Shown: positions 1-30,077 of the stretch, piece by piece
Position numbering within the stretch: the stretch's first letter is position 1
Layout of the letters: each line of letters begins with the position of its first letter
Source: an archaeon
GTDB taxonomy: Archaea; Nanobdellota; Nanobdellia; Pacearchaeales; GW2011-AR1
Assembly (NCBI GenBank): GCA_021107855.1
Contig: JAIORZ010000011.1
Span: 7,686-71,685, forward strand
Direction: 5' to 3'
DNA: 64,000 nucleotides
Notes under the pieces: model-generated
What the model saw: the letters and a program-made list of their open reading frames with translations, nothing else
The model's database searches: none
Told to the model about the DNA's origin: nothing
Made by a program: the position numbers and the translations under genes

Positions 1-642
1 AGGAAGTTGGAGGAGATTTTGCGGAAGATTCGGAAGGATGTTTTGATTGTGATGTGTCCGGGGCAGAATGATGCTGTTTGGTTGGGGGAGCCGCAGGCTG
101 CGATTTCGGATAAGTGGGCGCCTGGTTTAGTTGGGATGGAGAATTTATTTTTGGTTTCAAATCCTTGTGAGGTTGAGATTGGTTCGGGTTTTAGGGTTTT
201 GATGTATCATGGGGCGAGTATAAATGGGTTTATTGCTGAGATGCCGAAACTTCGTGGTGTTAAGGTTAGTAAGATTATGGAGGAGATTTTGAGGCGAAGG
301 CATTTGGCGCCGATTTATGGAATTATGGATTATATTCCTAGGAAGGAAAAGGATGATTTGGTTATTGAGAGTGTTCCGGATATTTTTGTTGTGGGTGATA
401 GGCATCGGGCGGAGGTTGAGAGTTATAATAATGTTTTGATGGTTTCGACTTCTTGTTGGCAATCGATTACGCCGTTTGAGGAGAGAGTTGGGAATAAGCC
501 TGACCCTTGTAAGGTGCCGTTGTTTAATTTGAAGACGCGTGAAGTTAAGATTGTGGATTTTAGTGATAGTGAGATTAAGTGGGATGAGGGAGATGATTTA
601 ATTTGTAAATTGGAGGGTTGTGATAATGAAAATTGCGATTGA
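1..642 (+). CDS. DNA polymerase D (PolD) small subunit DP1, C-terminal part; 5' end lies outside the window
   Basis: Frame 1 is open from base 1 (track start at 7 is TTG). It carries phosphoesterase-type blocks CPGQND, LMYHGAS and VVGDRH. The DP2 gene follows in the same transcription direction. Confidence 0.8.
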   Translation, partial: RKLEEILRKIRKDVLIVMCPGQNDAVWLGEPQAAISDKWAPGLVGMENLFLVSNPCEVEIGSGFRVLMYHGASINGFIAEMPKLRGVKVSKIMEEILRRRHLAPIYGIMDYIPRKEKDDLVIESVPDIFVVGDRHRAEVESYNNVLMVSTSCWQSITPFEERVGNKPDPCKVPLFNLKTREVKIVDFSDSEIKWDEGDDLICKLEGCDNENCD

Positions 643-1234
643 TATTGATGAGGTTGTTGTGAAATTTGTTGAGAGGTATTTGGAAGTTGCTAAGAGTCGA
701 GGATATAAGAGTGTTTTATATGAGGATGTTTTTACTTATAATTTATGGAAGGTTTTGGAGATTGAGAAGAAAGTGATGTTTGATATAATGGAGGAATATA
801 ATTTGATGGGTTATTATAAGGATGTTATTTTTGTTGAGGGTGCGCAAAAAGGGGTGAGGTTTTTGAGAGATAATTATGATATTTATTTTATTACATCGAG
901 GCCGAAGAGTATTTCTAAGGTGACCCGTGATTTAATTTTTAATGAGTTTGGGGTTTTGGGAGATAGGGTGATTTTTTCTGGGGATGTTTTGGGTGGAGCT
1001 AAGAATAAGGATGAGATTTGTAGGGAATTGGGGATTAAGGTTATTATTGAGGATAGTGAGGACGAATCTCTTGGTTACGCTAAGAATGGGTTGAGGGTTT
1101 TGTTATTAGACAAGCCTTGGAATCAGAGTGTTAAGCATGAGAATGTTTGTCGGTGTAGGGATTGGGGAGAGATTTTGGAGAGAGTTGAGGTCCTCGACGG
1201 ACATGACTCTAGTGAGCCCGAGGTGAAAGAATGA
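626..1234 (+). CDS. HAD-superfamily phosphatase, 5'(3')-deoxyribonucleotidase-like
   Basis: N-terminal DIDEV (DxDx[TV]) motif, then ITSRP and IIEDSED blocks. GGAGGG lies 8-9 nt before ATG 626 (track start 620 is GTG). It overlaps the DP1 stop and shares an ATGA overlap with the DP2 start. Confidence 0.5.
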   Translation: MKIAIDIDEVVVKFVERYLEVAKSRGYKSVLYEDVFTYNLWKVLEIEKKVMFDIMEEYNLMGYYKDVIFVEGAQKGVRFLRDNYDIYFITSRPKSISKVTRDLIFNEFGVLGDRVIFSGDVLGGAKNKDEICRELGIKVIIEDSEDESLGYAKNGLRVLLLDKPWNQSVKHENVCRCRDWGEILERVEVLDGHDSSEPEVKE

Positions 1235-4200
1235 AGAAGTATTTTGAGGACTTGAAGAGAAATGTGGATGCGGCTTATGTTGCGGCGCGTGAGGCTCGGT
1301 CAAAGGAGTTGGATTCTGTTGGTGATGTTGAGTGTCCTTTGGCTATGACGATGGCGGAGCGAGCTGTTAATTTGGTTAAAACTATTTATTCTGGTTTGTC
1401 GGTTGAGAAGGTTTCTGTGCGGATTTTGGAATTGGAAGAGAGGTATGGGAAATTGGATTCTACGGTTGCGTTTGTTGTTGCTAGGGAAATTGCGGAGGGG
1501 AAATTTGGGAAGTTTGGGGGTGAGCTTGAGAGAATTGATATTGGGATTCGTGTTGGTTTTGCTTATATGACCTTGGGGGTTGTTGCGAGTCCGATTGAGG
1601 GTTATACTGGTTTGAGGTTGGGGAAGACGAAGAGTGGTGAGAATTATTTTATTGTGAGTTTTAGTGGGCCGATTCGGAGTGCTGGGACTACGAGTGTTTG
1701 TTTGGTTTTGATGTTGATTGATTATTTAAGGGAGAGTTTTGGGTATGCGAAGTATGATTCTAATGAGGAGGAGGTTGGAAGGTATGTGGCGGAAAACAGG
1801 GATTTCCATGAGAGGGTTAGTAATTTGCAGTATTTTCCGACTGAGAAAGAGATTAGGTTTTTGGCTGAGGGTTTGCCGATTCAGATTGATGGTGACCCGA
1901 CCGAGCGGATTGAGGTTTCGAATTTTAAGGATTTAGATAGGGTTGGAACGAATCGGATTAGGGGTGGTATGTGTTTGGCTTTTTCGGAGGGGTTGGCTCA
2001 GAAAGCGGGGAAGGCTTTGGGTCGTTTAAGGGGGGTGAAGAAAAATGGTGTGGTTTGTAGTGGTTGGGATTATTTAGAAGATTATTTGATTTTGCATAAA
2101 AAGAAAGAGGCGGGAGATGTGGAAGTTGAAGCGACTTATATTAAGGATTTGGTTGCAGGACGTCCTGTTTATGGGCATCCGGGTCGGTCGGGTAGTTTTC
2201 GGTTTCGTTATGGGAGAGGTAGGACGGCTGGGTTTAGTGCGGTTTCAGTTCATCCTGCGACGATGGGTGTTACTGGCGGGTTTTTGTCTCATGGGACACA
2301 ATTGAGATTGGAGCGACCGACGAAAGGCTGTATTATAACTTCTTGTGATTCCATTGATGGACCTATTGTGAAATTGAAGGACGGTTCGGTTAGGAGACTT
2401 AGTGATTATGATGAGGCTCGTAAGTTGTATAATGATGGAGAGATTGAGGAAATTATTTATTTGGGGGATATTTTGTTTCCTGTTGGGGATGTGATTGATA
2501 GGAATGCGGATTTGGTGAGGTCTGGGTATGTTGAGGAGTGGTGGGCGCTTGAGGTTGGAGAAGAGTTAGATGTTGAAAATTTGAGTTTTGAAGATGTCGT
2601 GAAAATTAGTAAAGAGAAAAGGGTTCCGCTTCATCCAGATTTTATTTTTTATTGGTCGCAGATTTCTAATGAGAAATTTGTTGGTTTGTTGAAGTGGTTG
2701 AATGGAGGGATTTGGCGTGCGGGTAAGTTGGTGTTGAATTGGGAAAGGGGTGTTAGGGAGCAGTTTGACTCGGGGAAGCGGGCGCTTGAGATTTTGGGTG
2801 TGGAGCATGAAGTTGTGTTGGATAATATTGTTGTTGAAAAGGATGCTCGGGCATTGTTGTTTAATCTTGGGAAGTCGGAAGTTTATAATGGAGAGGTTTT
2901 GGAGTTTAAGGCGGATGAGAGTGACGAAAGGGATGTTTTGGAGATTGTGAATGGGTTGTGTGAATTTGAAGTGAAAGATAAGGCTGGGGTTTTTATTGGG
3001 GCTCGAATGGGTCGGCCCGAAAAAGCGAAGTTGCGGAAGTTGGCGGGTAGTCCGAATGCTTTGTTTCCTGTTGGGAATCAGGGTGGGAGATTGAGTAGTA
3101 TTCAGGAGGCGATTGAGAAGGGTTTTGTTAGAGGGGATTTTCCGGTGTTTAAATGTGGATGTGGCGAGGTTGGTTTTTGTGAGAGGTGTTTGGCGTGTGG
3201 AGAGAAAGGAGTGAGGATGAATTATTGTCGGCAGTGTAATGAGATTAAGGATGGGGAGTGCAAGTTGCATGGCGAGGTTGGTTTTTTTTGGAATAGGAAG
3301 GTTGAAATTGGAGGGTATTTTAATAGGGCGATTGAGGATTTGGGTTTTAAGGATTTTGAGGTTCCGGCGATGGTTAAGGGGGTGAAGAGGTTGAATAGTA
3401 AGTTGAGGGTTCCGGAGAATTTGGCGAAGGGGATTTTGCGGGCGAAGTTTGGTTTGAGTGTTAATAAGGATGGGACGATTCGTTATGATGCTACGGAGAT
3501 TCCGTTGACACATTTTAAGCCGAAGGAGGTTGGGGTTGGTTTTGAGAAGATTAGAGAGCTTGGATATTTGAAGGATGTTGGTGGGAAGGATTTGGTGAGT
3601 GATGACCAAATTTTGGAGTTGAAGCCGCATGATATTGTTTTACCTAATTGTTCTGAGGCGAAGGATGAGAGGGCTGGCGAGGTGTTTTTTAATATTGCGA
3701 ATTTTGTTGACGAGGAGTTGAGTAGGTTTTATGGGTTGGAGCGGTTTTATAATTTGGAGGGTAGGGGTGATTTGATTGGGGTTGAGGTTGTTTGTATGGC
3801 GCCGCATAATTGTGCTGGTGTTATTGGGAGGATTATTGGGTTTTCAAATATGCAGGGTTTGTTGGCGAGTCCGTATATGCACGCAGCGATGAGGCGGGAT
3901 TGTGATGGGGACGAGTGTTCGGTTATGTTGTTGATGGATGTTTTGTTGAATTTTTCTAGAGAGTTTTTGCCGAGTCATCGTGGTGGTCGGCAGGATGCGC
4001 CGTTGGTTCTGAATGCGAGGATTAGAGCAGGGGAGGTTGATGACCAGATTTTGTTTTTTGAGAGTTGTGGGAAATATCCGTTGGAATTATATAAGGCTGC
4101 CGAGCAGGGGTTGCATTCAAGTGTGATTAAGAATAAGGTTGAGACGATTTCGGATAAATTGAAAGCTGGAGAGGATGGGTTTGTTGGAAATGGTTTTAGT

Positions 4201-4647
4201 CATGATACCGGTGATTTTAATTTTGGTAATAATAATGGAATGTATAAGGTTTTGCCGACGATGAAAGAGAAGGTCGCGGCGCAGATGGAGTTGGCGGGGA
4301 AGCTTCGTTCGGTTGATGAGGACGATGTTGCAAGGTTGGTTTTGGAGAGGCATTTTCTTCGGGATATTCGTGGGAATTTGCGGAAGTTTGGGAGGCAGGG
4401 TTTTAGGTGTTCGGTTTGTAATGAGAAATATCGCCGGGTGCCGTTGAAGGGGAGTTGTTTTAAGTGTGATGGGAAGGTGATTTTCACGGTGAGTGAGGGG
4501 AGTGTTCGGAAGTATTTGGAGCCGGCGATGGAGTTGGTTAGGGATTATAATATTTCGAGTTATACTAAGGAGAATGTGGAGCTGATAGGGGATTATATTG
4601 AGAGGATTTTTGGGAAGGGGGAGGAGCAGAGTAGTTTGGGATTATGA
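1231..4647 (+). CDS. DNA polymerase D (PolD) large catalytic subunit DP2
   Basis: 1138 aa with a typical DP2 N-terminus (KYFEDL...), several CxxC zinc clusters (CGCGEVGFCERCLACG, CSVCNEKYRRVPLKGSCFKCDG) and CDGDE. GAGGTGA precedes the ATG. Confidence 0.9.
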   Translation: MKKYFEDLKRNVDAAYVAAREARSKELDSVGDVECPLAMTMAERAVNLVKTIYSGLSVEKVSVRILELEERYGKLDSTVAFVVAREIAEGKFGKFGGELERIDIGIRVGFAYMTLGVVASPIEGYTGLRLGKTKSGENYFIVSFSGPIRSAGTTSVCLVLMLIDYLRESFGYAKYDSNEEEVGRYVAENRDFHERVSNLQYFPTEKEIRFLAEGLPIQIDGDPTERIEVSNFKDLDRVGTNRIRGGMCLAFSEGLAQKAGKALGRLRGVKKNGVVCSGWDYLEDYLILHKKKEAGDVEVEATYIKDLVAGRPVYGHPGRSGSFRFRYGRGRTAGFSAVSVHPATMGVTGGFLSHGTQLRLERPTKGCIITSCDSIDGPIVKLKDGSVRRLSDYDEARKLYNDGEIEEIIYLGDILFPVGDVIDRNADLVRSGYVEEWWALEVGEELDVENLSFEDVVKISKEKRVPLHPDFIFYWSQISNEKFVGLLKWLNGGIWRAGKLVLNWERGVREQFDSGKRALEILGVEHEVVLDNIVVEKDARALLFNLGKSEVYNGEVLEFKADESDERDVLEIVNGLCEFEVKDKAGVFIGARMGRPEKAKLRKLAGSPNALFPVGNQGGRLSSIQEAIEKGFVRGDFPVFKCGCGEVGFCERCLACGEKGVRMNYCRQCNEIKDGECKLHGEVGFFWNRKVEIGGYFNRAIEDLGFKDFEVPAMVKGVKRLNSKLRVPENLAKGILRAKFGLSVNKDGTIRYDATEIPLTHFKPKEVGVGFEKIRELGYLKDVGGKDLVSDDQILELKPHDIVLPNCSEAKDERAGEVFFNIANFVDEELSRFYGLERFYNLEGRGDLIGVEVVCMAPHNCAGVIGRIIGFSNMQGLLASPYMHAAMRRDCDGDECSVMLLMDVLLNFSREFLPSHRGGRQDAPLVLNARIRAGEVDDQILFFESCGKYPLELYKAAEQGLHSSVIKNKVETISDKLKAGEDGFVGNGFSHDTGDFNFGNNNGMYKVLPTMKEKVAAQMELAGKLRSVDEDDVARLVLERHFLRDIRGNLRKFGRQGFRCSVCNEKYRRVPLKGSCFKCDGKVIFTVSEGSVRKYLEPAMELVRDYNISSYTKENVELIGDYIERIFGKGEEQSSLGL

Positions 4648-4702
4648 AATATGTAGTCATTTTAAAGTGATTATTTATAGGAAAGTTTATATATTATAAT
4701 TG

Positions 4703-5095
4703 ATGGGATTAGATATGGAAGAATTGCGAAATGTTATTATTAAACCTCTTATGAAAGGAAGTAGTATAATAGAGAGAAACCCTTTAGTGTTATTAATTTT
4801 GGAGGGTTCAGATGGTGCTGAGCAATTAGTTCTAGGTGAATTTGAAGAAATGAGGGGTTCTCGTCAAGAACCAAAGATAAAATTAGAAAATTCAATAGTT
4901 TTTAAGCGTCCTGACCAGACTCATTATTCCGATTGTCAAGATCATTATTCTCTTCCACGTGTTACTGATTCTCCCGAAAATGGAGAATATTCTTCATTAT
5001 GGAGCTTTGCATATACTGGAAGTAAAAAAATTATTAAAGAGCTCAAAAAAAGAGAAGATTGGACAAGTCCATATGCAGGCTTGATAAAAAGATAA
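4703..5095 (+). CDS. hypothetical protein (orphan, atypical composition)
   Basis: 130-aa ORF with an ATG start and no motif I recognise. Its coding strand is A+T rich with A>T, unlike the G+T-rich neighbours. Confidence 0.4.
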   Translation: MGLDMEELRNVIIKPLMKGSSIIERNPLVLLILEGSDGAEQLVLGEFEEMRGSRQEPKIKLENSIVFKRPDQTHYSDCQDHYSLPRVTDSPENGEYSSLWSFAYTGSKKIIKELKKREDWTSPYAGLIKR

Positions 5096-5146
5096 TTTTG
5101 ATTGATTATTTGTTTTTATTGTTGTAACTTAACAAGAGCACGACAA

Positions 5147-5156
5147 TTTTTTTAAA
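5147..5156 (+). promoter_or_regulatory. TATA-like box upstream of dnaE
   Basis: tttttttaaa is centred about 27 nt upstream of ATG 5178. This is the same spacing as the TTAAAAA boxes upstream of the three tRNAs in this window, which implies a very short or absent leader. Confidence 0.35.
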
Positions 5157-5177
5157 GTGGTTTGACTTTTTTGGAAG

Positions 5178-8100
5178 ATGGGGTTCACGCATTTACATTT
5201 ACATACGGAGTATTCTCTTTTGGACGGGGCGACGAAGGTTGATGAATTGTTTGGCAGGGTGAAGGAGTTGGGGCAGGATGCGGTTGCGATTACGGAGCAT
5301 GGAAATATGGGGGCTGTGATTAAGAAATATCAGGCGGCGAAGAAAGCTGGGGTTAAGTTGATTATGGGTTGTGAGGTTTATGTTTGTGATGATATTGGGA
5401 TTAAGGATAAGGACGCGAAGAGGTATCATTTGATTTTGTTGGCGAAGGATTTGGAGGGTTATCAGAATTTAGTTAAGCTTGATTCGATTGCGAATAATGA
5501 GGGTTTTTATTATAAGGCTCGGGTTGATAAGAAATTGTTGCGGAAGTATTCTAAGGGATTGATTTGTATGACGGCGTGTTTGGCGAATGATGTTGACCAG
5601 GCGGTTGTTGGTGGGGACGAGGAGAGGGCGAAGAAGTTGATTGAAGAATATATTGATATTTTTGGGAAGGAGAATTTTTATTTAGAGGTGCAGGATCATG
5701 GGATTTCTGAGGAGAAGGTTGTTGCCGATTTTTATAAGAGAATTGCGAAAGAAATGGATTTGAAGATTGTTGCGACTTGTGATTCGCATTTTTTGAAGAA
5801 GGATGATGCTTATGCTCATGAGGTTATGCTTGCGATTCAGACTAATGGTGATATGAATGTTGAGAAACGATTTAAGTTTTCTGGGAGTGGATATTGGATT
5901 AAGAGCGAGGAGGAGATGAGGAAGATTTTTCCGCAGGAGTATTTAGACTTGAGTTGTGAGATTGCTGATAGGTGTAATGTTGAGTTGGAGATGGGTGAGC
6001 CGATTTTTCCTGATTTTGAGACGCCGGATGGTTCGACGCATAGGGAGTATTTGTATAAGTTGTGTAAGAACGGGGTTGATAGGATTTATGGGGATAGGGA
6101 TAATTATGAGGAGGCTTTGAAGAGGATGGAATTTGAGTTGGATGCGATTTCGAATATGGGGTTCGAGGCGTATTTTTTGATTGTTGCGGATTTTATCGAG
6201 GACGCGAAGAAACATTGTCAGGTTGGGCCGGGACGAGGGAGTGGTGCGGGTTCGATTGTTGCGTATGCTTTGGGGATTACTCAGCTTGACCCCTTGGAAT
6301 TAGGATTGTTGTTTGAGAGGTTTATTAATCCAGATAGGATTTCATTACCGGACTTTGATATTGATTTTGGGGATAAGGATGTTGTTTTGGATTATGTTCG
6401 GAAGAAATATGGTGAGGATAAGGTGTCGTTGATTGGGACGTTTGGGACGATGAGTGCGAAGGCGGTTTTGAAAGATGTGATGAGGGTTTTTAGGGTTCCG
6501 TTTGATGAGGCGAATGCGATTACGAAGTCGGTTGCTGAAGGGACGATTCAGAAAAGTTTGGATGCCGAGAGGGATGGGCATTTGACGGACGAGGCTAGGA
6601 AGCTTCGGGATTTTGAAAAGAAGTTTAAAAAGATTTTTAAGATTGCGAAAAGGCTGGAGGGCTGTGTTCGGCATAAGGGTGTTCATGCTTGTGGTGTTGT
6701 TTGGGGGAAGAAAGCGATTAATGAATATATTCCGACTTATGGGAAGAATGGAGATGTGATTACGCAGATTGAGGGACCAGATGTCGAGAGTTATGGTTTG
6801 GTGAAGTTTGATTTTTTGGGGCTGGAGACTTTAAATGTTGTGAAGAAGGTTTTGGATGCGATTGGGAAGGATTCGGAGTGGTTGGAAAATATTCCGATGG
6901 ATGATGATTCGGTTTATGAGATGTTGCGGGATGAAAAGAGTATTGGGGTTTTTCAGATTGAGAGCGAGGGAATGAGGAAGGTTTTGGCGCAGATTAAACC
7001 TACTTGTTTTGATGATATTATTGCGATTGTTGCGCTTTATCGTCCTGGTCCGATGCAATATATTCCTATGTATGCGAATAGGAAGGCAGGTAGGGAGGCG
7101 GTTAGTTATGTTCATCCTAATGCTGAGAAAATTTTGGCGCCGACTTATGGGATTATGGTTTATCAGGAGCAGGTGATGCAGTTGAGTCGGGCTTTGGCTG
7201 GGTTTAGTGCGGGGGACAGTGATGTTTTGAGGAAGGCGATTGGGAAGAAAATTTTAGCTTTGATGGAAAAAATGGAGGGGCAGTTTAAGTCGGGTTGTGT
7301 TAAGCATTCAGGGATGGAGAAGAGTGAGGTGAATCATTTATGGGATGATATTGTGAAGTTTGCGGCTTATAGTTTTAATAAATCTCATGCAGCTGCGTAT
7401 GCTTTGATTTCGTATCGGACCGCTTACTTGAAGAAGTATTATCCTGTTGAGTTTTATGCTGCGACGATTTCTTCGGCTGTTAAGAATCCTGAGAAGTTGG
7501 CGCTTTATTTGGAATCTGCTAGGGGTGAGGGTATTAAGATTTTGCATCCAGATATTAATAGTTCGAAAGAGGATTTTTCGGTTGATTTAGTCGAGGTTCG
7601 CGAGGAAGATTTTCCACAAAAAGTCAAGGAGTCTTCGACTCACGTGACTTCTCGTGGAGGGAAGGTTGGGAGTTTTATGGAGAAAGATGAAAAGAGGCAT
7701 GAGAAAGTGATTCGTGTGGGGTTGAGTGGGATTAAGAATGTTGGAGGAGAGGCTATGGCGAAGATTCTCGAGGGGCGACCGTATAAGTCATATCAGGATT
7801 TTATTAATAGGGTTGATTTATCGAAGGTGAATAAGAGAGTTTGTCATAGTTTGATTTCGGTTGGATGTTTTGATGATATGGGGATTAATAGGGCGAGTTT
7901 GCTTTCTGTTTATGATAGGGTTTGTGTGACCCAGAATTCTCGTGAGAAGCAGATGGCGCTTTTTGGTGGGGGGATTGCAAATGTTGTGGAGTATCCTGAT
8001 TTGGAGCCGTTGAGCTTGAAGGAGCAGTTGGATTTGGAGGAGGAGTTGTTGGGGGTTTGTGTTTCGGGGCATGCGGTTGATGCTTACGCTGAGTCTAAGA

Positions 8101-8408
8101 ATAATGAGTTTGTTCCTTTTAATAAATTGAAAGAGGATTTGGAGGTGGATGTTTTTGGTTTGGTTAAGAGGTTTACGAAGATTATGACGAAGAAAGGGGA
8201 TGATATGGCGTTTATGGATTTGAGTTCTAGGTCTGGGGATTTGAAAGTGACGATTTTCCCTCGGGATTTTGAGAAGATGAGGGAGGATGCGGAGAGGATT
8301 AAGATTGGGGATGGCGTGAAGATTGCGGGGAAACTTAAGGAAAGTGAGGAGTTTGGGGATGCGTTTATTGCTAAGAGTGTTTTGGTTTGTTCTCCTGTTG
8401 CAAAGTAG
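5178..8408 (+). CDS. dnaE: DNA polymerase III alpha subunit (bacterial C-family replicase, DnaE type)
   Basis: 1076 aa. PHP motifs HLHLHTEYS, ITEHGNM and CDSHF; palm motif LPDFDIDF; GVHACGVV; HhH GLSGIKNVGG; QMALF at aa 925-929; C-terminal OB-like region. Confidence 0.9.
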   Translation: MGFTHLHLHTEYSLLDGATKVDELFGRVKELGQDAVAITEHGNMGAVIKKYQAAKKAGVKLIMGCEVYVCDDIGIKDKDAKRYHLILLAKDLEGYQNLVKLDSIANNEGFYYKARVDKKLLRKYSKGLICMTACLANDVDQAVVGGDEERAKKLIEEYIDIFGKENFYLEVQDHGISEEKVVADFYKRIAKEMDLKIVATCDSHFLKKDDAYAHEVMLAIQTNGDMNVEKRFKFSGSGYWIKSEEEMRKIFPQEYLDLSCEIADRCNVELEMGEPIFPDFETPDGSTHREYLYKLCKNGVDRIYGDRDNYEEALKRMEFELDAISNMGFEAYFLIVADFIEDAKKHCQVGPGRGSGAGSIVAYALGITQLDPLELGLLFERFINPDRISLPDFDIDFGDKDVVLDYVRKKYGEDKVSLIGTFGTMSAKAVLKDVMRVFRVPFDEANAITKSVAEGTIQKSLDAERDGHLTDEARKLRDFEKKFKKIFKIAKRLEGCVRHKGVHACGVVWGKKAINEYIPTYGKNGDVITQIEGPDVESYGLVKFDFLGLETLNVVKKVLDAIGKDSEWLENIPMDDDSVYEMLRDEKSIGVFQIESEGMRKVLAQIKPTCFDDIIAIVALYRPGPMQYIPMYANRKAGREAVSYVHPNAEKILAPTYGIMVYQEQVMQLSRALAGFSAGDSDVLRKAIGKKILALMEKMEGQFKSGCVKHSGMEKSEVNHLWDDIVKFAAYSFNKSHAAAYALISYRTAYLKKYYPVEFYAATISSAVKNPEKLALYLESARGEGIKILHPDINSSKEDFSVDLVEVREEDFPQKVKESSTHVTSRGGKVGSFMEKDEKRHEKVIRVGLSGIKNVGGEAMAKILEGRPYKSYQDFINRVDLSKVNKRVCHSLISVGCFDDMGINRASLLSVYDRVCVTQNSREKQMALFGGGIANVVEYPDLEPLSLKEQLDLEEELLGVCVSGHAVDAYAESKNNEFVPFNKLKEDLEVDVFGLVKRFTKIMTKKGDDMAFMDLSSRSGDLKVTIFPRDFEKMREDAERIKIGDGVKIAGKLKESEEFGDAFIAKSVLVCSPVAK

Positions 8409-8450
8409 GCTAATGAGAATGTTTAAGTATGGAAGTTTGTTGTTGATGTT

Positions 8451-8654
8451 ATGGTAAAAGTGGAAACACAAGCTGCACCAGCGGTTGCGACTCCTGCGAC
8501 TTCGGCTCCGGCTGAAGCGGCTACGACTCCCGCGACTCCTGCGACTCCTGCTGCGGTTCCAGCAAAAGAAGGTGGTTCTAAAATGTGGCTTTGGATGGGG
8601 ATTGTCGCTGCGGTTATTGTCGTCGCTGGTCTTGCATACTGGTTGCTAATTTAG
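8451..8654 (+). CDS. small Ala/Thr/Pro-rich tail-anchored membrane protein (hypothetical)
   Basis: 67 aa with a low-complexity ATP-rich N-terminal part (short gcgactcct repeats) and a single C-terminal TM helix (MWLWMGIVAAVIVVAGLAYWLLI). Confidence 0.4.
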   Translation: MVKVETQAAPAVATPATSAPAEAATTPATPATPAAVPAKEGGSKMWLWMGIVAAVIVVAGLAYWLLI

Positions 8655-8788
8655 AGGAACTTAACTTCTTGATTTAGAATTATTTTAGTTTTACTGCGGT
8701 TCTAAAAGTAGTGCTCGAGATGCCTCGAATGTTGATATAACTTTTTGATGATATAAATACTTAAATAATTAGAGGTGGTTTTTGTTTT

Positions 8789-9190
8789 ATGGATGAAAGA
8801 TTAGTCTTTAAATTTTATGATATATATACGAAAAATTTACGTAGGTTGCGTTTTTCTTTTATGCCTGGAGCTAGGAGAAAAGTTAAAGGAAATATGAAAT
8901 CTGCTGTTAATGGGATTAAGCGAAACTTGTCCCAAAGTGAGGATATTTTTATTCCTCTTAGAGATGGGTTGATTGAAAAATTACGGGATTGTGGGCAAGA
9001 TTGTTTTTATGATGCCAAGGAAGTCCGAAGGTGGTATGAGGTTATGGAGAGATTAAACAATAGGAGCACGAGGAAAGAGGAATATAGGGAATTGCAACAT
9101 AATTTTAGATTTAGAGAATATCTGAGTAAAGCGGATATTGAGAATTATGCAAAATATTTAGAGAGAGAGTTGGAGCGTAGAAGGGGTTAG
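8789..9190 (+). CDS. hypothetical protein (orphan, atypical composition)
   Basis: 133-aa ORF with a charged helical sequence and no recognisable motif. Its coding strand is A-rich, unlike the flanking + strand genes. Confidence 0.4.
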   Translation: MDERLVFKFYDIYTKNLRRLRFSFMPGARRKVKGNMKSAVNGIKRNLSQSEDIFIPLRDGLIEKLRDCGQDCFYDAKEVRRWYEVMERLNNRSTRKEEYRELQHNFRFREYLSKADIENYAKYLERELERRRG

Positions 9191-9202
9191 GTTGTTAGAA
9201 TT

Positions 9203-9526
9203 TTATTTAAGTTTTATAGCTGTGCCATAAACCAGCATCTCAGCTGCACCTTGCATCACCATCGCTGTTGAGAATCTTACTCCGATTATTGCGTCGGCTT
9301 TCATGTCGATTGCTTGGTTTACCATTCTGTTGAATGCTTCTTCTCTTGCTTGGGTTGTCATTTGGGTGTAAGATTTTATCTCGCCGCCTACGACGTTTTT
9401 GAGTCCGGCCAGAACATCTCTACCTATATGTCTTGCTCTGATAGTGTTTCCTTTTGCTATACCTAAGACTTTTGTGATTTTTTTGCCGGGTATTTCTAGT
9501 GCCGTTGTTGTGGGTAGTTCTTTCAT
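9203..9526 (-). CDS. YbjQ/UPF0145 family protein
   Basis: 107 aa with the family-typical sequence KVLGIAKGNTIRARHIGRDVLAGLKNVVGGEI...AIIGVRF...VYGTAIKL. Confidence 0.75.
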   Translation of the reverse strand: MKELPTTTALEIPGKKITKVLGIAKGNTIRARHIGRDVLAGLKNVVGGEIKSYTQMTTQAREEAFNRMVNQAIDMKADAIIGVRFSTAMVMQGAAEMLVYGTAIKLK

Positions 9527-9693
9527 TTTTTATCCCTCCTTTTCTCTATTTTGTTTTCTTCTTTGTAGAAGATTATTAGTGCGATTCCGATTATGGCTGG
9601 GACTAGGGATGGGATGATTGCGTTGGTTTTTGAGTATATTCCTATTCCGAGAATTATTCCTGCGATTCCCAAGAGGGCGGACTCTTTTGTCAT
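9523..9693 (-). CDS. small two-TM membrane protein (hypothetical; below ORF-track cutoff)
   Basis: Manual translation gives MTKESALLGIAGIILGIGIYSKTNAIIPSLVPAIIGIALIIFYKEENKIEKRRDKK. Its stop overlaps the YbjQ start as ATGA. Confidence 0.45.
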   Translation of the reverse strand: MTKESALLGIAGIILGIGIYSKTNAIIPSLVPAIIGIALIIFYKEENKIEKRRDKK

Positions 9694-9733: not shown

Positions 9734-10921
9734 TTAGAAGGGGAGGTAGAAAATAATTGTTGGGATTAGGATTGCGCCCATTAGGATGCTTTTTCTGGTT
9801 TGGAATTCTATGCAGGTTAGACCTAGTGATGTTGAGACGGCTAAGACGATTAGGCCGAGAATTCCTGTGAAGTAAAATGTGATGGCAGTCAGAAAAATTA
9901 TGATAGCTAGGGAAATTTTACTGTATGGAAATTTGTGGATTATTTTTGCTATCTTTTTTGCGAAGAAGATTGTTATTGGAATTGAGATTATTGATGAGAT
10001 TAGGATTGTTGTGAAAATTGTTAGTAAGTTTGTCGTCGATATTTGGGTTATTTGTGAGATGGCGGCGGCGATTCCTGTTCTTTGTTTCTGGAATAGGTAG
10101 AGAGTTAGGAAGGAGGTAGCGGTCACTAGGGTGTTGATTGACCCGAGGAGGATTAGGAATTGTTCTCGGTTTAGTTTTTTGAATATTGAAGAGCTTATTA
10201 TTGCGGCTTGGCTGGAACCGAGTCCTGGGAGGAAGGAGCAGATTGGAGAGATGAGGATGGTTGCTAGTGTTGGTTTGATTAGTTCTTTTTTGTCGATGTG
10301 GAGTTTTTCCAGGGATTGTTTTGGAGGGATTGATTTTGATTTTATTGAATAAATTATTGTTGAAGTTCCGAATAGTCCTGTCAAAAGTGGGAGGAGGGGT
10401 TGTTGTAGGTTTAGGTTGAAAGTTGCTAAGCCGAGGAATCCTGCTAGGGCAAAAATTAGGATAGATTTCATTTTTTCTTTTTCTGTATAAAGTAGGAAGA
10501 TTGCTACCCAGATTAGGAAGAACGCCATCATTTGTTTGATGAATGGGTAGAGTTTTGGGAGGATGAAGAGGAAGATAGGGATGACGATAATCATTGAGGC
10601 GATTGCGATGGTCGAGCCTATGATGGTCAGTTTTGTTGCGTGGATTCCGAGTCCTTTTAGTAGAAATTTGTGTCCTGGGAGAACCCCTAGGAATGAGTCC
10701 TCGTCTGGTGCTCCGAAGAAGATTGATGGGATGAAGTTTAGGAAAGTGTGTGTTATCGCGGTGCTGGTGAGGAAGATGAGGAGGGTGGTGGTTGGTAGTT
10801 TTAGGAAGAAAGGGATGGAGATTATTATTGTGGCTATGAGGTTGGTGTGGATTCCGGGGGTTAGGCCGCTGATGGTTCCGGAGAGGATGCCGAGGAGCAG
10901 GGGGAGAATTAGGTTGAGCAT
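9734..10921 (-). CDS. polytopic membrane protein, TctA/DUF112-like
   Basis: 395 aa with about 10 TM helices. The N-terminal LLGILSGTISGLTPGIHTN resembles the GxxxGxxPGxG signature of TctA-family proteins. Confidence 0.45.
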   Translation of the reverse strand: MLNLILPLLLGILSGTISGLTPGIHTNLIATIIISIPFFLKLPTTTLLIFLTSTAITHTFLNFIPSIFFGAPDEDSFLGVLPGHKFLLKGLGIHATKLTIIGSTIAIASMIIVIPIFLFILPKLYPFIKQMMAFFLIWVAIFLLYTEKEKMKSILIFALAGFLGLATFNLNLQQPLLPLLTGLFGTSTIIYSIKSKSIPPKQSLEKLHIDKKELIKPTLATILISPICSFLPGLGSSQAAIISSSIFKKLNREQFLILLGSINTLVTATSFLTLYLFQKQRTGIAAAISQITQISTTNLLTIFTTILISSIISIPITIFFAKKIAKIIHKFPYSKISLAIIIFLTAITFYFTGILGLIVLAVSTSLGLTCIEFQTRKSILMGAILIPTIIFYLPF

Positions 10922-10922
10922 T

Positions 10923-11210
10923 TTATTTTAGGACGGAAATTCTTTCGATGATGATTTGTTTTTTATTTTTGTAAATGCTGGATTTTCCTTGGAATTTTAT
11001 TTGGTCGTTTTTATTGAGAGATAGATTTATTTTGTCGAATATAATTAATTCGGCTGAGTGGTTTTCTAGTTGGATTGTGGTTTTTGTAGGGGAATAGTGG
11101 ATTGAGCTTATTGTGGCGGTTTGGATTGATTTTGTTTGGGCGAGGAAGATTAGTAAGAGAATTCCTAGGAGAGTTAAGATAAGAGTTAACTTTTCCGCTC
11201 TTGTTGTCAT
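10923..11210 (-). CDS. membrane-anchored OB-fold-like small protein (hypothetical)
   Basis: 95 aa with an N-terminal TM helix followed by a beta-rich domain. ATGA overlap with the upstream GTPase gene. Confidence 0.4.
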   Translation of the reverse strand: MTTRAEKLTLILTLLGILLLIFLAQTKSIQTATISSIHYSPTKTTIQLENHSAELIIFDKINLSLNKNDQIKFQGKSSIYKNKKQIIIERISVLK

Positions 11211-12121
11211 TCTGTTTGAAACTCTATTATGTCTTTGTCTTTTAGGTGGTGTTCTAATCCGATTATTTGACCGCCGAATTTACTAGATGGTCCCCAGACT
11301 CGTGCTCGTTTGATTTTTTTTGACATTCCTTTTCGAATTTTTTCTGCGGCATCTCTGAAAGTTGAATTTTTCTTTAATATCATTGGTTCTTTACTTGGAA
11401 TTTTTTTGGGTTCTTTTGTGTAGATTCGGATGATTGGGAATGTTTTGAATATCTTTCGTTTTAGTTGTGTGAGTTTCGTTTTAGTCGGTGAATTTGATAG
11501 AAATATGTAGGAGAGTTTTTTGTGTTTTGATTTTAGGGTTGCTTCTATTTTTCTTTTTTCTATTTCTGAGAGGAGGTCTTCTTTATTAAATACTAAGATG
11601 GTTTTTGCGTGGGTTCTGTAAAGGAGGTCTGTGGCTTTTTTGATTTGGTCAAGGTTGTCGATTGTTAGGAGGAGTGTGTCGGTTGAGTTGACGAGGGATT
11701 TGTCGTGGTTTGGGAATGAGGGGATGTCGATGATTTGGATTTGGGCGTCTTTGTAGTGGAAGGTTCCGAGTTGGGGTTGGTATGTTGTGAAAGGGTGTGG
11801 GGAGGTTTTTGTTTCTTGGGACGTTAGGGTTTGGAAGATTGTGGATTTTCCGGTGTTTGGGAATCCTGTGAGGACGCATTGCATATCAGCTTTTTTGATT
11901 CCGACTTGGTTCCCTTTGCCTGATTTTTTTTGTTTGACTAGAGAGGTTTTTAGTTTTTTGTAGCGATTTGTTAAATTCTTTCGCATGTTTTCCGAAGATT
12001 TATGTTTTGGGACTTCCTTCATCATGATTTCTAGGCATACGAGTCTTTCTTCGTCCGAGGTGGCTTCTTGATATTCTTGTTCGGCTTTTTGGTAGAAGGG
12101 TGATTGGTTTGTGCTTGCCAT
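11207..12121 (-). CDS. DRG/Obg-like GTPase with C-terminal TGS domain
   Basis: G1 motif GFPNTGKST, FTTYQP (G2 region), and a C-terminal TGS-like ARVWGPSSKFGGQIIGLEHHLKDKDIIEF. Confidence 0.8.
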   Translation of the reverse strand: MASTNQSPFYQKAEQEYQEATSDEERLVCLEIMMKEVPKHKSSENMRKNLTNRYKKLKTSLVKQKKSGKGNQVGIKKADMQCVLTGFPNTGKSTIFQTLTSQETKTSPHPFTTYQPQLGTFHYKDAQIQIIDIPSFPNHDKSLVNSTDTLLLTIDNLDQIKKATDLLYRTHAKTILVFNKEDLLSEIEKRKIEATLKSKHKKLSYIFLSNSPTKTKLTQLKRKIFKTFPIIRIYTKEPKKIPSKEPMILKKNSTFRDAAEKIRKGMSKKIKRARVWGPSSKFGGQIIGLEHHLKDKDIIEFQTE

Positions 12122-12203
12122 GATTTCTTTCTTTTTAGAAAAAAGAAATTTCTCGCAAGTAAAAAAACTTATTTTCCAAAACTGCGTTTTGATTTAGTTC
12201 CAT
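12122..12203 (-). repeat. intergenic repeat family A, copy 1 (mini-ORF plus hairpin, abuts the DRG start codon)
   Basis: 82 nt, about 90% identical to 42109-42190 by manual alignment. The minus strand reads ATG..MELNQNAVLENKFFYLREISFF..TAA (12203-12135). Confidence 0.85.
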
Positions 12204-12236
12204 AAGGTTTTTAATGTTAGGAGGTTTATTAAATTT

Positions 12237-12467
12237 ATGAGGTTTAGTTTCGTGTGGCTGTTTGTTTTTGTTTTGGTTATGGGTGGGGTTTTTGGAGATG
12301 AAAATGGGACTGAAGAGATTGTTGTTGAAGATGGAGGTTCGGGAGACGGGAAGGTTTTTACTGCTGAGTTTTATGTTGCTTTGTTGATTGGCGTTGTGAT
12401 ATTGGCTCTTCTTGGTTGGGTTGTTTGGTTAGTGATTCGGGGACCGAAGAATAAGTGGGATAAGTAA
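12237..12467 (+). CDS. small type I membrane protein (hypothetical)
   Basis: Signal-peptide-like N-terminus MRFSFVWLFVFVLVMGGVFG, a C-terminal TM helix and a basic tail. GGAGG lies 12 nt upstream of the start. Confidence 0.4.
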   Translation: MRFSFVWLFVFVLVMGGVFGDENGTEEIVVEDGGSGDGKVFTAEFYVALLIGVVILALLGWVVWLVIRGPKNKWDK

Positions 12468-12519
12468 TTGTTTTTGGTTTGCGGTAAAAGTTTAAATAGA
12501 TTAGAAACGTGAATTTGTT

Positions 12520-12906
12520 ATGGTGAAAATAGAGTTGGGGAAGAGAGATTTTATTTGGATTGGGTTGATTGTTGTTTTGTTGGGTGTTGGGGTTGTTTAT
12601 GCTTTTGGGGGAAGTGAGCCTGCTGTTATGGGACATGATGCTGGGGAACTTGGGGGGACTTGTTTGAGCGATGGGACGAATTGTGATGTGACGAGGGCGT
12701 GGGTCAATAACAGAGTTGCTAGTGTAAGCACTTCATTGGGGCAAAGTACTTGTCAGTGGATATATGTTAGTACATGCGGGCATTCTTGTGGTGCAGGGGC
12801 ATATTATCAAGCGGTTTGTCCAGTTGGATATTATATGGCAGGTCACTCGATGTATACTTGGGCTTCGTATGCGACATATAATCATCGAATTTACTGTTGT
12901 AGATAA
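12520..12906 (+). CDS. small Cys-rich surface protein, family member 1 (paralog of 52121-52516)
   Basis: N-terminal KRDFIWIGLIVVLLG anchor, then PAVMGHDAGEL, a Cys-rich body, and a C-terminus ending YCCR. Confidence 0.6.
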   Translation: MVKIELGKRDFIWIGLIVVLLGVGVVYAFGGSEPAVMGHDAGELGGTCLSDGTNCDVTRAWVNNRVASVSTSLGQSTCQWIYVSTCGHSCGAGAYYQAVCPVGYYMAGHSMYTWASYATYNHRIYCCR

Positions 12907-12947
12907 GAAGTAGAAAGGTTGTTAAATTAAGAGATTTTTTTATTTTT

Positions 12948-13613
12948 ATGAAATTAGCTGTTTTGTTTAGTGGGGGAAAGGATTCTAGTTTGGCTTTGCA
13001 TAAGGTTTTGAAACGTGGAGATGATGTTAAATTTTTGTTGAATGTTTTTCCTAAGAATGAGGATAGTTTTATGTTTCATAAGCAGGATTTCGGTTTGTTG
13101 GAGGCGCAGGTTGAGAGGTTGGGGATTGAGATGATTTCGGTTGAGAGCGAGGGGAGGAAAGAGGAGGAATTGGATGATTTAAGGAAGTTGATTGGGAAGA
13201 TTAAGGATGATGTTGAGGGGATTGTGGTTGGAGGGATTGCGTCTTCTTACCAGGGGACGAGGATTGAGAAAATTTGTGGTGAATTTGGGTTGGAATTTGT
13301 TGCACCTATTTTAGATTATGAGTCGGAAAAACTTTGGGAGGAATTGTTGGCGGAAGGTTTTGAGGTTGTGATGATTAAGATTGCTTCTGATGGGATTGGA
13401 AAGGAGTGGCTTGGCCGGGTGATTGACAGGGAGGCTTTTGGTGAGCTGAAGAATTTGGCTGAGAAGTATAAGTTTAGGTTGGATTTTGAGGGTGGCGAGG
13501 CAGAGAGTTGTGTTTTGAATATGCCAGGGTATTCGAAGAGGATTGAGATTGATTTTGAGATTGAGAGTGAGGGGGAGTTTCGGCATTTTATGAGGGGGGT
13601 GAGGGTTAGATGA
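12948..13613 (+). CDS. diphthine-ammonia ligase (Dph6-type PP-loop ATPase, MJ0570 family)
   Basis: PP-loop SGGKDS at aa 8-13; the length and layout are typical of the archaeal family. Confidence 0.75.
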   Translation: MKLAVLFSGGKDSSLALHKVLKRGDDVKFLLNVFPKNEDSFMFHKQDFGLLEAQVERLGIEMISVESEGRKEEELDDLRKLIGKIKDDVEGIVVGGIASSYQGTRIEKICGEFGLEFVAPILDYESEKLWEELLAEGFEVVMIKIASDGIGKEWLGRVIDREAFGELKNLAEKYKFRLDFEGGEAESCVLNMPGYSKRIEIDFEIESEGEFRHFMRGVRVR

Positions 13614-14568: not shown

Positions 14569-14655
14569 ATCATTCACACTTCTCTGGCTCAATGTGAGAG
14601 AATTATAATTGTTGAGAAGCGTTAGGTATTTAAGTTTAGGAATTTTATTTTTATT

Positions 14656-30053: not shown

Positions 30054-30077
30054 GGATAGAAAAATCAAAACGAACTT

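What the first reader, a model, noticed from the sequence alone, without database searches (positions are those of the whole stretch)
5178..8408. Intact bacterial-type DNA polymerase III alpha (DnaE) directly downstream of the archaeal PolD operon
Seen in the sequence:
- A 1076-aa C-family polymerase with all hallmark blocks present. PHP metal ligands (HLHLHTEYS, ITEHGNM, CDSHF), palm aspartates (LPDFDIDF), GVHACGVV, HhH (GLSGIKNVGG) and an OB-like C-terminus.
- An extra ~35-aa insertion (EVREEDFPQKVKESSTHVTSRGGKVGSFMEKDEKRHEK, about 7590-7700) lies before the HhH.
- Every other information-processing gene in the window is archaeal (PolD, RadA, RPA, GINS-like, aIF2-alpha, aEF-1beta, eS1, eL42, eS27, Nop10, Bud32).
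- The gene shares the extreme G+T-rich, C-poor composition of its neighbours.
- A TATA-like box lies about 27 nt upstream of the ATG, the same spacing as at the three tRNA genes.

Established: C-family polymerases are the bacterial replicases, while archaea normally replicate with PolB and/or PolD.

Inference: the gene is long-resident and natively expressed, not an assembly chimera. The intact PHP site hints at self-contained proofreading. Its role (second replicase, repair or strand-specific synthesis) is unknown, and it could relate to the strand asymmetry noted above.
Basis: partly seen in the sequence, partly recalled or inferred. Interest (0 to 1): 0.75.

Follow-up and report, generated by a model that had tools for sequence, protein, structure and literature searches.

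The report
Bacterial-type DnaE polymerase wired to archaeal PolD
A tiny archaeon (Pacearchaeota) carries an intact bacterial-type replicative DNA polymerase gene inside its own archaeal polymerase operon, and in one related archaeon the two polymerases are fused into a single protein, which suggests that two unrelated replicases work together.

Summary
ORF 5178-8408 (+) is a full-length, catalytically intact DnaE (C-family polymerase). It lies downstream of PolD genes in an unmistakably archaeal context.

It is neither contamination nor a chimera:
- An independent assembly reproduces the junction.
- Nine related loci place DnaE beside PolD, eight of them in the order (Cdc6-)DP1-(NT5C)-DP2-DnaE.
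- The gene shares its neighbours' extreme base composition and has an archaeal TATA box at -27.

More than 120 protein clusters (58-100% identity, labelled Pacearchaeota or Nanoarchaeota) form one clade with 100% bootstrap support. The best bacterial relative is about 42-46% identical, so no recent donor is visible. DnaE co-diverges with DP2 (r = 0.91) and is the more conserved of the two.

All nine PHP metal ligands, the three palm aspartates and the clamp-binding pentapeptide (QMALF) are conserved. The tau-binding C-terminal domain is absent. The "35-aa insertion" is a hypervariable loop.

In one related lineage, DP2 and DnaE are a single 2207-2212-aa fusion protein.

Best reading: DnaE is a vertically inherited replisome polymerase that works with PolD.

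Its presence next to PolD was already reported for two Pacearchaeota (Castelle et al. 2021). I found no report of the fusion, the co-evolution or the architecture. Any link to the strand asymmetry is unresolved.

The parts
7..642 (+). PolD small subunit DP1, C-terminal part. The gene runs off the window start.
   Evidence: Pfam DNA_pol_E_B, E = 8e-17. It is 56-62% identical to DP1 in L002, L005 and L006.
620..1234 (+). NT5C-like 5'-deoxynucleotidase gene lying inside the PolD operon.
   Evidence: Pfam NT5C. It holds the same position in L002, L005 and L006. It is fused to DP2 in P0385, P0389, P0402 and P0404.
1231..4647 (+). PolD large catalytic subunit DP2, 1138 aa.
   Evidence: Pfam PolC_DP2_N, central and catalytic domains at full length. 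The catalytic motif RRDCDGDE is present. The C-terminus ends ...EEQSSLGL*, a truncated PIP-like motif.
4715..5095 (+). Lineage-specific small ORF (126 aa) in the DP2-DnaE spacer.
   Evidence: It was called as a gene in the independent contig L001. It has no Pfam hit and no homologue in 11 related loci. Its GC content and skew are lower than its neighbours'.
5151..5156 (+). TATA-like box (TTTAAA) starting 27 nt upstream of the DnaE ATG.
   Evidence: Sequence. A window-wide peak of TATA-like hexamers starts at -29 to -27 in 23 of 75 genes.
5178..8408 (+). dnaE: C-family DNA polymerase III alpha, 1076 aa, with architecture PHP-Pol3-(HhH)2-OB and no C-terminal tau-binding domain.
5190..5699 (+). 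Core of the PHP domain. Ligands H7 to C134 fall inside it; D202 and H204 lie at nt 5781-5789.
   Evidence: Pfam PHP 5-174. The nine ligands are invariant in 18 clade members.
6045..7307 (+). Polymerase core (palm, thumb and fingers) with catalytic D392, D394 and D545.
   Evidence: Pfam DNA_pol3_alpha 290-548 and finger 551-710. The aspartates are invariant and align with Taq.
7584..7709 (+). Hypervariable low-complexity loop (about aa 803-844) just before the HhH module.
   Evidence: It is absent in Taq. Among clade members it is absent or carries unrelated sequence.
7950..7964 (+). Internal clamp-binding pentapeptide QMALF (aa 925-929).
   Evidence: Q925 and L928 are invariant and F929 is at least 90% conserved. 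The motif aligns with Mtb DnaE1 QFDLF and with QLDLF in the E. coli alpha chain of PDB 5fku. From my own knowledge, that is an engineered form of the native QADMF beta-binding motif.
8148..8345 (+). C-terminal OB fold. The protein ends 20 aa later.
   Evidence: Pfam tRNA_anti-codon 991-1056. The NCBIfam profile match stops at 1049 of 1146.

Best explanation
What it is
- The gene is a functional DnaE1-like C-family DNA polymerase.
- It was acquired once, long ago, at the base of a large Pacearchaeota (DPANN) lineage and has been inherited vertically since.
- It is encoded in a replication operon, orc1/cdc6 - polD small - (NT5C) - polD large - dnaE. This operon may lie next to the replication origin, which I have not tested.

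How it most likely works
- It acts at the replication fork as a second polymerase, physically coupled to PolD.
- The coupling is probably through the flexible C-terminal tail of DP2, the tail that in other archaea recruits PCNA and primase.
- It has lost the bacterial tau-binding domain.
- It keeps the short clamp-binding peptide, which I infer now docks on archaeal PCNA.
- It keeps a complete PHP metal site, which I infer supplies its own 3'-5' proofreading.

Shown: intactness, vertical descent, operon linkage, fusion with DP2 in one lineage, and loss of the C-terminal domain (CTD).

Inferred: physical coupling in this genome, PCNA use, PHP exonuclease activity, and how labour is divided with PolD (primer extension or hand-off versus bulk synthesis).
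For: Intact enzyme
- Full domain set and an above-threshold DnaE equivalog hit.
- PHP ligands, palm aspartates and the clamp motif are invariant or nearly so across 18 members at 60-90% identity.
- QMALF sits at the homologous position of the Mtb and E. coli beta-binding motifs.

Native and old
- An independent assembly gives the same junction.
- More than 120 clusters at 58-100% identity carry archaeal labels.
- The clade is monophyletic at 100% NJ bootstrap, on a long stem separating it from the 76 nearest bacterial representatives.
- The best bacterial match is 42-46% identical and sits in a bacterial context.
- GC3 skew and TATA geometry match the neighbouring genes.

Functional link to PolD
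- DnaE follows DP2 in the window, L002/L003, L005, L006, L204, L205 (1-nt gap), L041 and the P0389 locus.
- It stays within about 4.3 kb of PolD in convergent orientation in the P0114 locus.
- A DP2-DnaE fusion ORF of 2207-2212 aa has no internal stop, with DP2 joined to DnaE by a linker of roughly 65-75 aa. It appears in NCBI, ENA and Logan records.
- Pairwise DP2 and DnaE identities correlate (r = 0.91). DnaE is the more conserved in 20 of 21 pairs, 66% against 59% on average.

PolD itself is intact
- The RRDCDGDE motif is present.
- Relatives keep canonical C-terminal PIP boxes (KQxxLxxWF), which implies a PCNA-based clamp system in the clade.
- The PolD internal PIP motif QLxLI, which resembles the bacterial QLxLF, binds the PCNA pocket (Madru et al. 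2020).
Against: - There is no biochemical or expression data.
- The fusion comes from one species-level lineage only. Its records are nearly identical, so they may not be fully independent samples. No further fusion appears among the 120 best DP2 homologues.
- One clade member (L206) has DnaE away from PolD on the side that could be seen.
- The clamp partner is untested. I could not check whole genomes for dnaN, a clamp loader, PCNA or PolB. None is encoded in the 64-kb window.
- Operon linkage is also compatible with co-regulated but separate functions.
- In other archaea PolD alone is sufficient for replication (general knowledge; Madru et al. discussion), so a second replicase is not obviously needed.
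Confidence: 0.6

Rival explanations
1. DnaE is a repair or translesion polymerase, as DnaE2 is in bacteria. It would be co-located with PolD but would not act in bulk replication.
For: Like DnaE2 it lacks the tau-binding CTD (Timinskas 2014). PolD is sufficient for replication in other archaea. The window also encodes the repair genes XPF, Hef, RadA and UDG.
Against: - The NCBIfam DnaE2 model scores 549 bits against a cut-off of 939, whereas the DnaE model scores 1129 against 1002.
- The PHP site is intact and invariant.
- No imuA/imuB-like partners appear in any of the loci.
- The gene sits in the cdc6-polD operon, is fused to the replicase catalytic subunit in one lineage, and is more conserved than DP2.
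Confidence: 0.2
2. DnaE has become the main replicase. PolD would be reduced to primer extension or initiation, with a role like Pol alpha or B. subtilis DnaE. That would be a replicase replacement in progress.
For: DnaE is more conserved than DP2 in 20 of 21 pairs. In the window's subclade the DP2 C-terminal PIP box is truncated to Q(V/G)TL* or QSSLGL*, whereas deeper members keep QxxLxxWF. DnaE keeps a strong clamp motif.
Against: DP2's catalytic motif and all three of its domains are intact, and DP1 is retained. Nothing here tests which enzyme does bulk synthesis. This rival is a sub-case of the best explanation, not an alternative to it.
Confidence: 0.15
3. DnaE is a passenger of a virus or mobile element and contributes nothing to host replication.
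For: The nearest sister sequences (P0122 and P0123, 47-49% identical, intein-bearing) lie on contigs of unidirectional small ORFans with almost no Pfam or PHROG hits, which looks virus-like. They group with the archaeal clade at 100% bootstrap. Castelle et al. noted phage genes near some DPANN Pol III genes.
Against: The chromosomal position is conserved among housekeeping genes in nine loci. No integrase or other element hallmarks flank the gene in the window. Composition is fully ameliorated, and purifying selection is strong. IMG/VR holds nothing above 39% identity. A viral route for the original acquisition remains possible.
Confidence: 0.04
4. The gene is an assembly chimera or bacterial contamination.
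For: None found. A few database labels for clade proteins are clearly mis-binned (Methanococcoides sp. SA1, Nitrosarchaeum, Peregrinibacteria).
Against: An independent contig shows the same junction. Synteny holds across many assemblies, including contigs of 62-229 kb fetched here. Composition and promoter are native. No close bacterial homologue exists.
Confidence: 0.01

Closest known systems
Pacearchaeota 'DNA polymerase III' reported by Castelle et al. 2021 (Front Microbiol, PMC8204110)
   Same: It is the same gene family in the same position, next to the PolD small and large subunit genes in two Pacearchaeota. L004, from Pacearchaeota RIFOXYB2_FULL_43_25, carries a DnaE 81% identical to the window's.
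   Different: That paper verified 3 of 35 sequences as DPANN, called the Pacearchaeota ones 'highly divergent', and suggested HGT. It does not describe the clade's size, the Cdc6-PolD-DnaE operon, co-evolution with DP2, the loss of the CTD, the conserved clamp motif and PHP site, or the DP2-DnaE fusion (none came up in my literature searches).
Bacterial DnaE1 with an active PHP exonuclease (Thermus aquaticus, Mycobacterium tuberculosis DnaE1)
   Same: The PHP-Pol3-(HhH)2-OB order, all nine PHP ligands, the palm aspartates and the position of the internal clamp motif all match. The best solved relatives are Taq (735 bits) and Mtb (645 bits).
   Different: It has no tau-binding CTD, is only about 40-46% identical, and sits in an archaeal host with PolD and, as far as could be seen here, no bacterial holoenzyme partners.
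Bacterial DnaE2 (error-prone, ImuA/ImuB-associated)
   Same: Both lack the CTD (Timinskas 2014).
   Different: The sequence scores far below the DnaE2 model's cut-off. No imuAB genes are present, and the genomic context is replication, not SOS.
Two-polymerase replisome of Bacillota (PolC plus DnaE3)
   Same: This is a functional analogy: two different replicative polymerases act at one fork, with hand-off between them (PMC5627055 abstract).
   Different: In Bacillota both enzymes are C-family. DnaE3 has a degraded PHP site and a weak clamp motif. Here the partners belong to unrelated families (D and C), and DnaE keeps both features.
Euryarchaeal PolD plus PolB pair
   Same: Both pair archaeal PolD with a second, proofreading polymerase that uses the clamp.
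   Different: The second enzyme here is C-family, is encoded in the PolD operon, and in one lineage is covalently fused to DP2. I know of no such linkage for PolB.

Membership tests
DnaE (C-family DNA polymerase III alpha) | Domain order PHP - Pol3 (palm, thumb, fingers) - (HhH)2 - OB | tested here: met
   Pfam shows five domains in the canonical order. TIGR00594 scores 1060 bits against a cut-off of 434, and NF004226 scores 1129 against 1002.
DnaE (C-family DNA polymerase III alpha) | Three catalytic palm aspartates (E. coli D401, D403 and D555; numbering from my own knowledge) | tested here: met
   D392, D394 and D545 lie in LPDFDIDF and KFDFLGL. They are invariant in 18 clade members and align with Taq.
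DnaE1 subgroup | C-terminal tau-binding domain (CTD), present in 91% of DnaE1 | tested here: not met
   The protein ends 20 aa after the OB domain. Profile NF004226 is matched only to position 1049 of 1146, and the E. coli alignment stops near residue 1046-1066 of 1160. The definition comes from Timinskas 2014.
DnaE1 subgroup | Conserved internal beta-clamp-binding pentapeptide (Qxx[LM]F) | tested here: met
   QMALF at aa 925-929. Q925 and L928 are invariant and F929 is at least 90% conserved. It aligns with the Mtb QFDLF and E. coli motif positions.
DnaE1 subgroup | Intact nine-residue PHP metal site (non-proteobacterial DnaE1 with intrinsic proofreading) | tested here: met
   H7, H9, D16, H41, E66, H84, C134, D202 and H204 are invariant. 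Exonuclease activity itself was not tested.
DnaE1 subgroup | Works with the beta clamp (DnaN), the DnaX clamp loader, and optionally epsilon | not testable with these tools
   Whole genomes could not be searched. None of these genes is in the 64-kb window or in about 200 kb of related loci. Clade DP2s carry PIP boxes, which points to PCNA.
DnaE2 (error-prone) | Sequence membership (NF004225), imuA/imuB neighbourhood | tested here: not met
   NF004225 scores 549 bits against a cut-off of 939. No imuAB-like genes occur in any locus.
DnaE3 (PolC companion) | Co-occurrence with PolC, degraded PHP site and weak clamp motif | tested here: not met
   The PHP site and clamp motif are intact. PolC models score only 187-204 bits against cut-offs of 873-1043. 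Absence of PolC from the genome was not tested.
Pacearchaeota PolD-linked DnaE clade (defined here; first noted by Castelle 2021) | Monophyly with archaeal-context homologues, position next to polD, no CTD | tested here: met
   NJ bootstrap is 100%. Synteny is shown. Clade members are typically 1036-1090 aa, apart from intein-bearing, loop-expanded or partial records.

The most novel reading that the evidence does not exclude
In this Pacearchaeota lineage a D-family and a C-family polymerase form one physically coupled hybrid replicase. The two unrelated 'domain-specific' replicases would divide the work at the fork. The natural DP2-DnaE fusion would be its covalent form, making the lineage a living intermediate of replicase displacement. 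The different error and repair spectra of the two enzymes on the two strands, or replication that is effectively unidirectional, would generate the extraordinary strand asymmetry seen in most of the clade (GC3-skew strand component 0.36-0.71).
Probability: 0.25. Interest if true: 0.9.

Novelty: new variant of a known kind. Interest (0 to 1): 0.62.

Why it matters
Bacterial (C-family) and archaeal/eukaryotic (B- and D-family) replicases are not homologous. How one system could ever replace another is a long-standing question about the origin of DNA replication.

This lineage stably maintains both PolD and a bacterial-type DnaE in one operon, and in one case in one polypeptide. That gives a natural system in which coexistence, division of labour and clamp switching (beta-type motif on PCNA) between unrelated replicases can be tested biochemically.

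The proteins are ordinary in size and should be expressible. The fusion protein predicts a direct PolD-DnaE complex.

The presence of the gene is already in the literature, so the value lies in the functional coupling, not in the sighting.

Tried and rejected
- **Genome-contig scan with the single protein.** The patterns were too specific or matched by chance. It returned only three archaeal loci, and the window's own genome is not in that collection.
- **Metagenome-contig scan with alignment A1.** The chosen patterns (YQEQVMQ, SLPDFD[IV]D) are universal DnaE motifs.
- **Viral-contig scans.** The best hit was 39% identical, so IMG/VR holds no close viral source.
- **PHROGs on the virus-like sister contigs L042 and L207.** Only three weak or generic hits came back, so their viral nature remains unproven.
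- **AlphaFold2 from the 18-sequence alignment.** The model had mean pLDDT 58.9 and pTM 0.32. That is too poor for fold comparison, so I did not use it.
- **Test for a GC-skew sign change across the Cdc6-upstream intergenic region.** Too few sites made it inconclusive.
- **DnaE-less relatives as a control for the skew.** I looked among the top 120 DP2 homologues. All are at least 59% identical and are probably all from the DnaE-bearing clade, so no control was obtained.
- **Searching for dnaN, PCNA or PolB in the same genomes.** This was not possible with the flank limits.
- **Small ORFs 4715-5095, 8451-8654 and 8789-9190 as candidate accessory subunits.** No homologues exist in the related loci, so I rejected the idea.


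Full report
**1. Observation**

ORF 5178-8408 on the + strand encodes 1076 aa from an ATG.

- Pfam finds PHP (5-174), DNA_pol3_alpha (290-548), the finger domain (551-710), HHH_6 (785-908) and an OB fold (991-1056).
- The NCBIfam DnaE equivalog NF004226 scores 1129 bits, above its cut-off of 1002. The match stops at profile position 1049 of 1146. The DnaE2 and PolC models fall far below their cut-offs.
- The best solved relatives are Thermus aquaticus and M. tuberculosis DnaE1, then E. coli alpha.
- In an alignment of 18 clade members at 60-90% identity (A1), the nine PHP metal ligands are invariant: H7, H9, D16, H41, E66, H84, C134, D202 and H204. The palm aspartates D392, D394 and D545 are also invariant.
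- The pentapeptide QMALF (925-929) aligns with the beta-clamp-binding motif of Mtb DnaE1 (QFDLF) and with QLDLF in the E. coli alpha chain of 5fku. From my own knowledge, QLDLF there is an engineered form of the native QADMF. Q925 and L928 are invariant and F929 is nearly so.
- The protein ends 20 residues after the OB fold, so the tau-binding C-terminal domain of DnaE1 is absent (domain definitions from Timinskas et al. 2014).
It occupies a hypervariable site. Close relatives have no insert (P0002, P0014, P0044), or have inserts of 12 to about 85 residues with unrelated, low-complexity sequence.

**2. Context**

- Upstream lie the C-terminal part of PolD DP1 (7-642), an NT5C-like gene (620-1234) and PolD DP2 (1231-4647).
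- DP2 keeps the catalytic RRDCDGDE motif.
- A 530-nt spacer separates DP2 from DnaE. It holds a lineage-specific ORF (4715-5095) with no homologue in related loci.
- Elsewhere the window encodes RadA, an RPA-like protein, Hef and XPF, aIF2-alpha, eS1, a RIO/Bud32-type kinase, SRP54 and FtsY, a UDG and other genes. No PCNA and no beta clamp is encoded in the window.
- TATA-like hexamers peak sharply at -29 to -27 from predicted start codons (23 of 75 genes). This indicates archaeal promoters and largely leaderless mRNAs. DnaE has TTTAAA starting at -27.

**3. Not an artefact**

- An ENA contig of 9171 nt from another assembly matches window 501-9671 with 7 mismatches and spans DP2, the spacer and DnaE.
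- DnaE's third-position GC skew (+0.87) equals DP2's (+0.89).
- No bacterial homologue is close. In a HMMER search of 1.84 billion cluster representatives, the scores drop from the archaeal clade (P0100 at 68%, P0121 at 60%, P0122 and P0123 at 48-49%) to a flat continuum of bacterial DnaE at 39-46%.
- The best of these bacterial matches (the P0124/P0282 cluster) lies among NusB, L32p, MurL and RNase III.

**4. The clade**

- A word-indexed search returned more than 120 clusters (90% identity level) at 58-100% identity. Where they carry labels, these read Pacearchaeota, Nanoarchaeota or 'archaeon', with a few evident mis-binnings.
- I built a neighbour-joining tree on 1033 trimmed columns from 94 sequences. 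The archaeal clade has 100% bootstrap support. It groups, again at 100%, with two intein-bearing sequences (P0122, P0123). All 76 nearest bacterial representatives lie across a stem of 0.20 substitutions per site.
- P0122 and P0123 sit on contigs made of unidirectional small ORFans, which looks virus-like but is unproven.
- IMG/VR holds nothing above 39% identity.
- A single old acquisition, possibly through a virus, followed by vertical descent is the simplest reading.

**5. Linkage to PolD**

- The order (PRC-barrel gene) - AT-rich intergenic region - Orc1/Cdc6 - DP1 - (NT5C) - DP2 - DnaE recurs in these loci:
  - L002/L003;
  - L204;
  - L205, where only 1 nt separates DP2 from DnaE;
  - L041;
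  - the P0389 locus.
- L005 and L006 show DP1-NT5C-DP2-DnaE; I did not examine their upstream region.
- In the P0114 locus DnaE and PolD are convergent and about 4.3 kb apart.
- In L206 DnaE lies beside TBP and MCM, with no PolD gene in the 10 kb upstream. The only downstream gene is cut off by the contig end and was not annotated.
- Across seven genomes the pairwise identities of DP2 and DnaE correlate (r = 0.91). DnaE is the more conserved in 20 of 21 pairs, with means of 66% and 59%.

**6. The fusion**

- Representative P0121 (2207 aa) and its cluster mates P0271 (2212 aa, NCBI GCA_964518625.1) and P0272 (2207 aa, ENA) contain the three DP2 domains followed by the complete DnaE domain set.
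- I read the DNA of L041. A single ORF (10001-16639) runs from the DP2 C-terminus (...DYIENLFGVEKQLSLNEG), through a K/E/N/I-rich linker of roughly 65-75 residues, into DnaE (RDGFVHLHLHTEYS...). It has no stop codon, while both other frames are full of stops.
- P0272 differs by one residue in the linker.
- The fused DnaE keeps the PHP ligands and the clamp motif.
- This is Rosetta-stone evidence that the two polymerases act together.
- Its limits: it comes from one lineage, its records are nearly identical, and no further fusion appears among the 120 best DP2 homologues.
- The attachment point is the DP2 C-terminal tail. In Pyrococcus this tail carries the cPIP that binds PCNA and primase (Madru et al. 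2020).

**7. Clamp**

- I could not search whole genomes for dnaN or PCNA.
- Indirect evidence favours PCNA. Deeper clade members keep canonical PIP boxes at the DP2 C-terminus (KQxxLxxWF*).
- The bacterial tau-binding domain is gone.
- The PolD internal PIP motif (QLxLI), which resembles the bacterial QLxLF, is known to occupy the PCNA pocket.
- In the window's own subclade the DP2 cPIP is truncated to EEQ(V/G)TL* or QSSLGL*. I could not explain this.

**8. Mechanism proposed**

DnaE is a constitutive replisome polymerase coupled to PolD. It uses PCNA through its retained pentapeptide and proofreads through its PHP site. Which enzyme extends primers and which does bulk synthesis is open. The rival readings are scored in the rivals section: a repair polymerase, DnaE as the main replicase, a mobile-element passenger, and an artefact.

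**9. Prior knowledge**

- Castelle et al. 2021 (PMC8204110) reported DNA polymerase III in DPANN. In two Pacearchaeota they found it next to the PolD small and large subunit genes, and they called those sequences highly divergent.
- L004, from Pacearchaeota RIFOXYB2_FULL_43_25, carries a DnaE 81% identical to the window's.
- The sighting is therefore not new.
- My searches found no description of the operon's conservation, the co-evolution, the CTD-less architecture or the DP2-DnaE fusion. The searchable library is incomplete.

**10. Strand asymmetry**

- The + strand has 27.0% G and 13.1% C. At third codon positions, + strand genes have a skew of +0.81 and - strand genes -0.53, so the bias follows the DNA strand and not the direction of transcription.
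- The strand component is 0.66-0.71 in the closest relatives and 0.36-0.45 in more distant PolD-DnaE loci. It is -0.08 in L206 and between -0.26 and +0.18 in four bacterial control loci.
- DnaE always lies on the G-rich strand where a bias exists.
- No clear sign change is seen across the Cdc6-upstream region, but there are too few sites to decide.
- A precedent exists in CPR Microgenomates, where the cumulative skew has one sign across the chromosome and unidirectional replication was proposed (Kadnikov et al. 2020).
- Whether DnaE contributes to the asymmetry is undecided.

Noticed in passing
window 1-64000; also L002, L004, L005, L006, L125, L204, L205, L041: The window shows extreme strand compositional asymmetry that does not depend on gene orientation. 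The + strand has G 27.0% and C 13.1%, and the GC3-skew strand component is +0.67 in the window. Across the clade it is 0.36-0.71, but -0.08 in L206, and bacterial controls fall between -0.26 and +0.18. No sign change occurs within 64 kb. A similar one-signed skew is published for CPR Microgenomates (PMC7143001).
   Followed up: partly
window 620-1234; P0385, P0389, P0402, P0404: An NT5C-like 5'-deoxynucleotidase gene sits between DP1 and DP2. In at least four related clusters it is fused to the N-terminus of DP2 (1339-1374 aa). It may be a PolD-associated subunit.
   Followed up: partly
window 4620-4647 (DP2 C-terminus); P0339-P0345: The DP2 C-terminal PIP box is canonical (KQxxLxxWF*) in deeper clade members. 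In the window's subclade it is truncated to QSSLGL* or EEQ(V/G)TL*, losing the aromatic pair.
   Followed up: partly
window, upstream of 75 predicted genes: TATA-like hexamers peak sharply, starting at -29 to -27 from start codons in 23 of 75 genes. This implies that most mRNAs are leaderless.
   Followed up: yes
L042 5176-9261; L207 1983-6164: The closest outgroup DnaEs (47-49% identical) carry inteins, one with an HNH domain. They lie on contigs of unidirectional small ORFans with almost no family hits. These may be viruses or other elements of DPANN-like hosts.
   Followed up: partly
P0058, P0075 (DnaE); P0299, P0319, P0327, P0367 (DP2); L206 2564-5869 (MCM): Inteins are frequent in the replication proteins of this clade: DnaE, DP2 and MCM.
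   Followed up: no
L002 2722-3128; L204 3168-3660; L205 3082-3562; L041 6650-7111: AT-rich intergenic regions of 400-500 nt (GC about 18% in L002) lie between a PRC-barrel gene and orc1/cdc6. They contain (TATA)n tracts and repeated TTTATAAA-type elements and are plausibly oriC. By synteny the window would start about 2-3 kb downstream of such a region.
   Followed up: partly
window 26296-41323: This block encodes a T2SSE/PilB-type ATPase (26296-28575), a prepilin peptidase (32196-33014) and several large - strand ORFs (335, 612 and 738 aa) with no Pfam hit. Bulk GC skew falls to about 0 here only because the genes lie on the - strand.
   Followed up: no
window 41372-41974: A uracil-DNA glycosylase superfamily gene (Pfam UDG, E = 3.6e-35). 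It may be relevant to a genome whose asymmetry looks like cytosine-deamination bias.
   Followed up: no
P0020 and P0304 (Methanococcoides sp. SA1), P0089 (Nitrosarchaeum sp.), P0308 (Peregrinibacteria): The public labels of some clade DnaE and DP2 proteins point to unrelated organisms. These are most likely binning errors.
   Followed up: no
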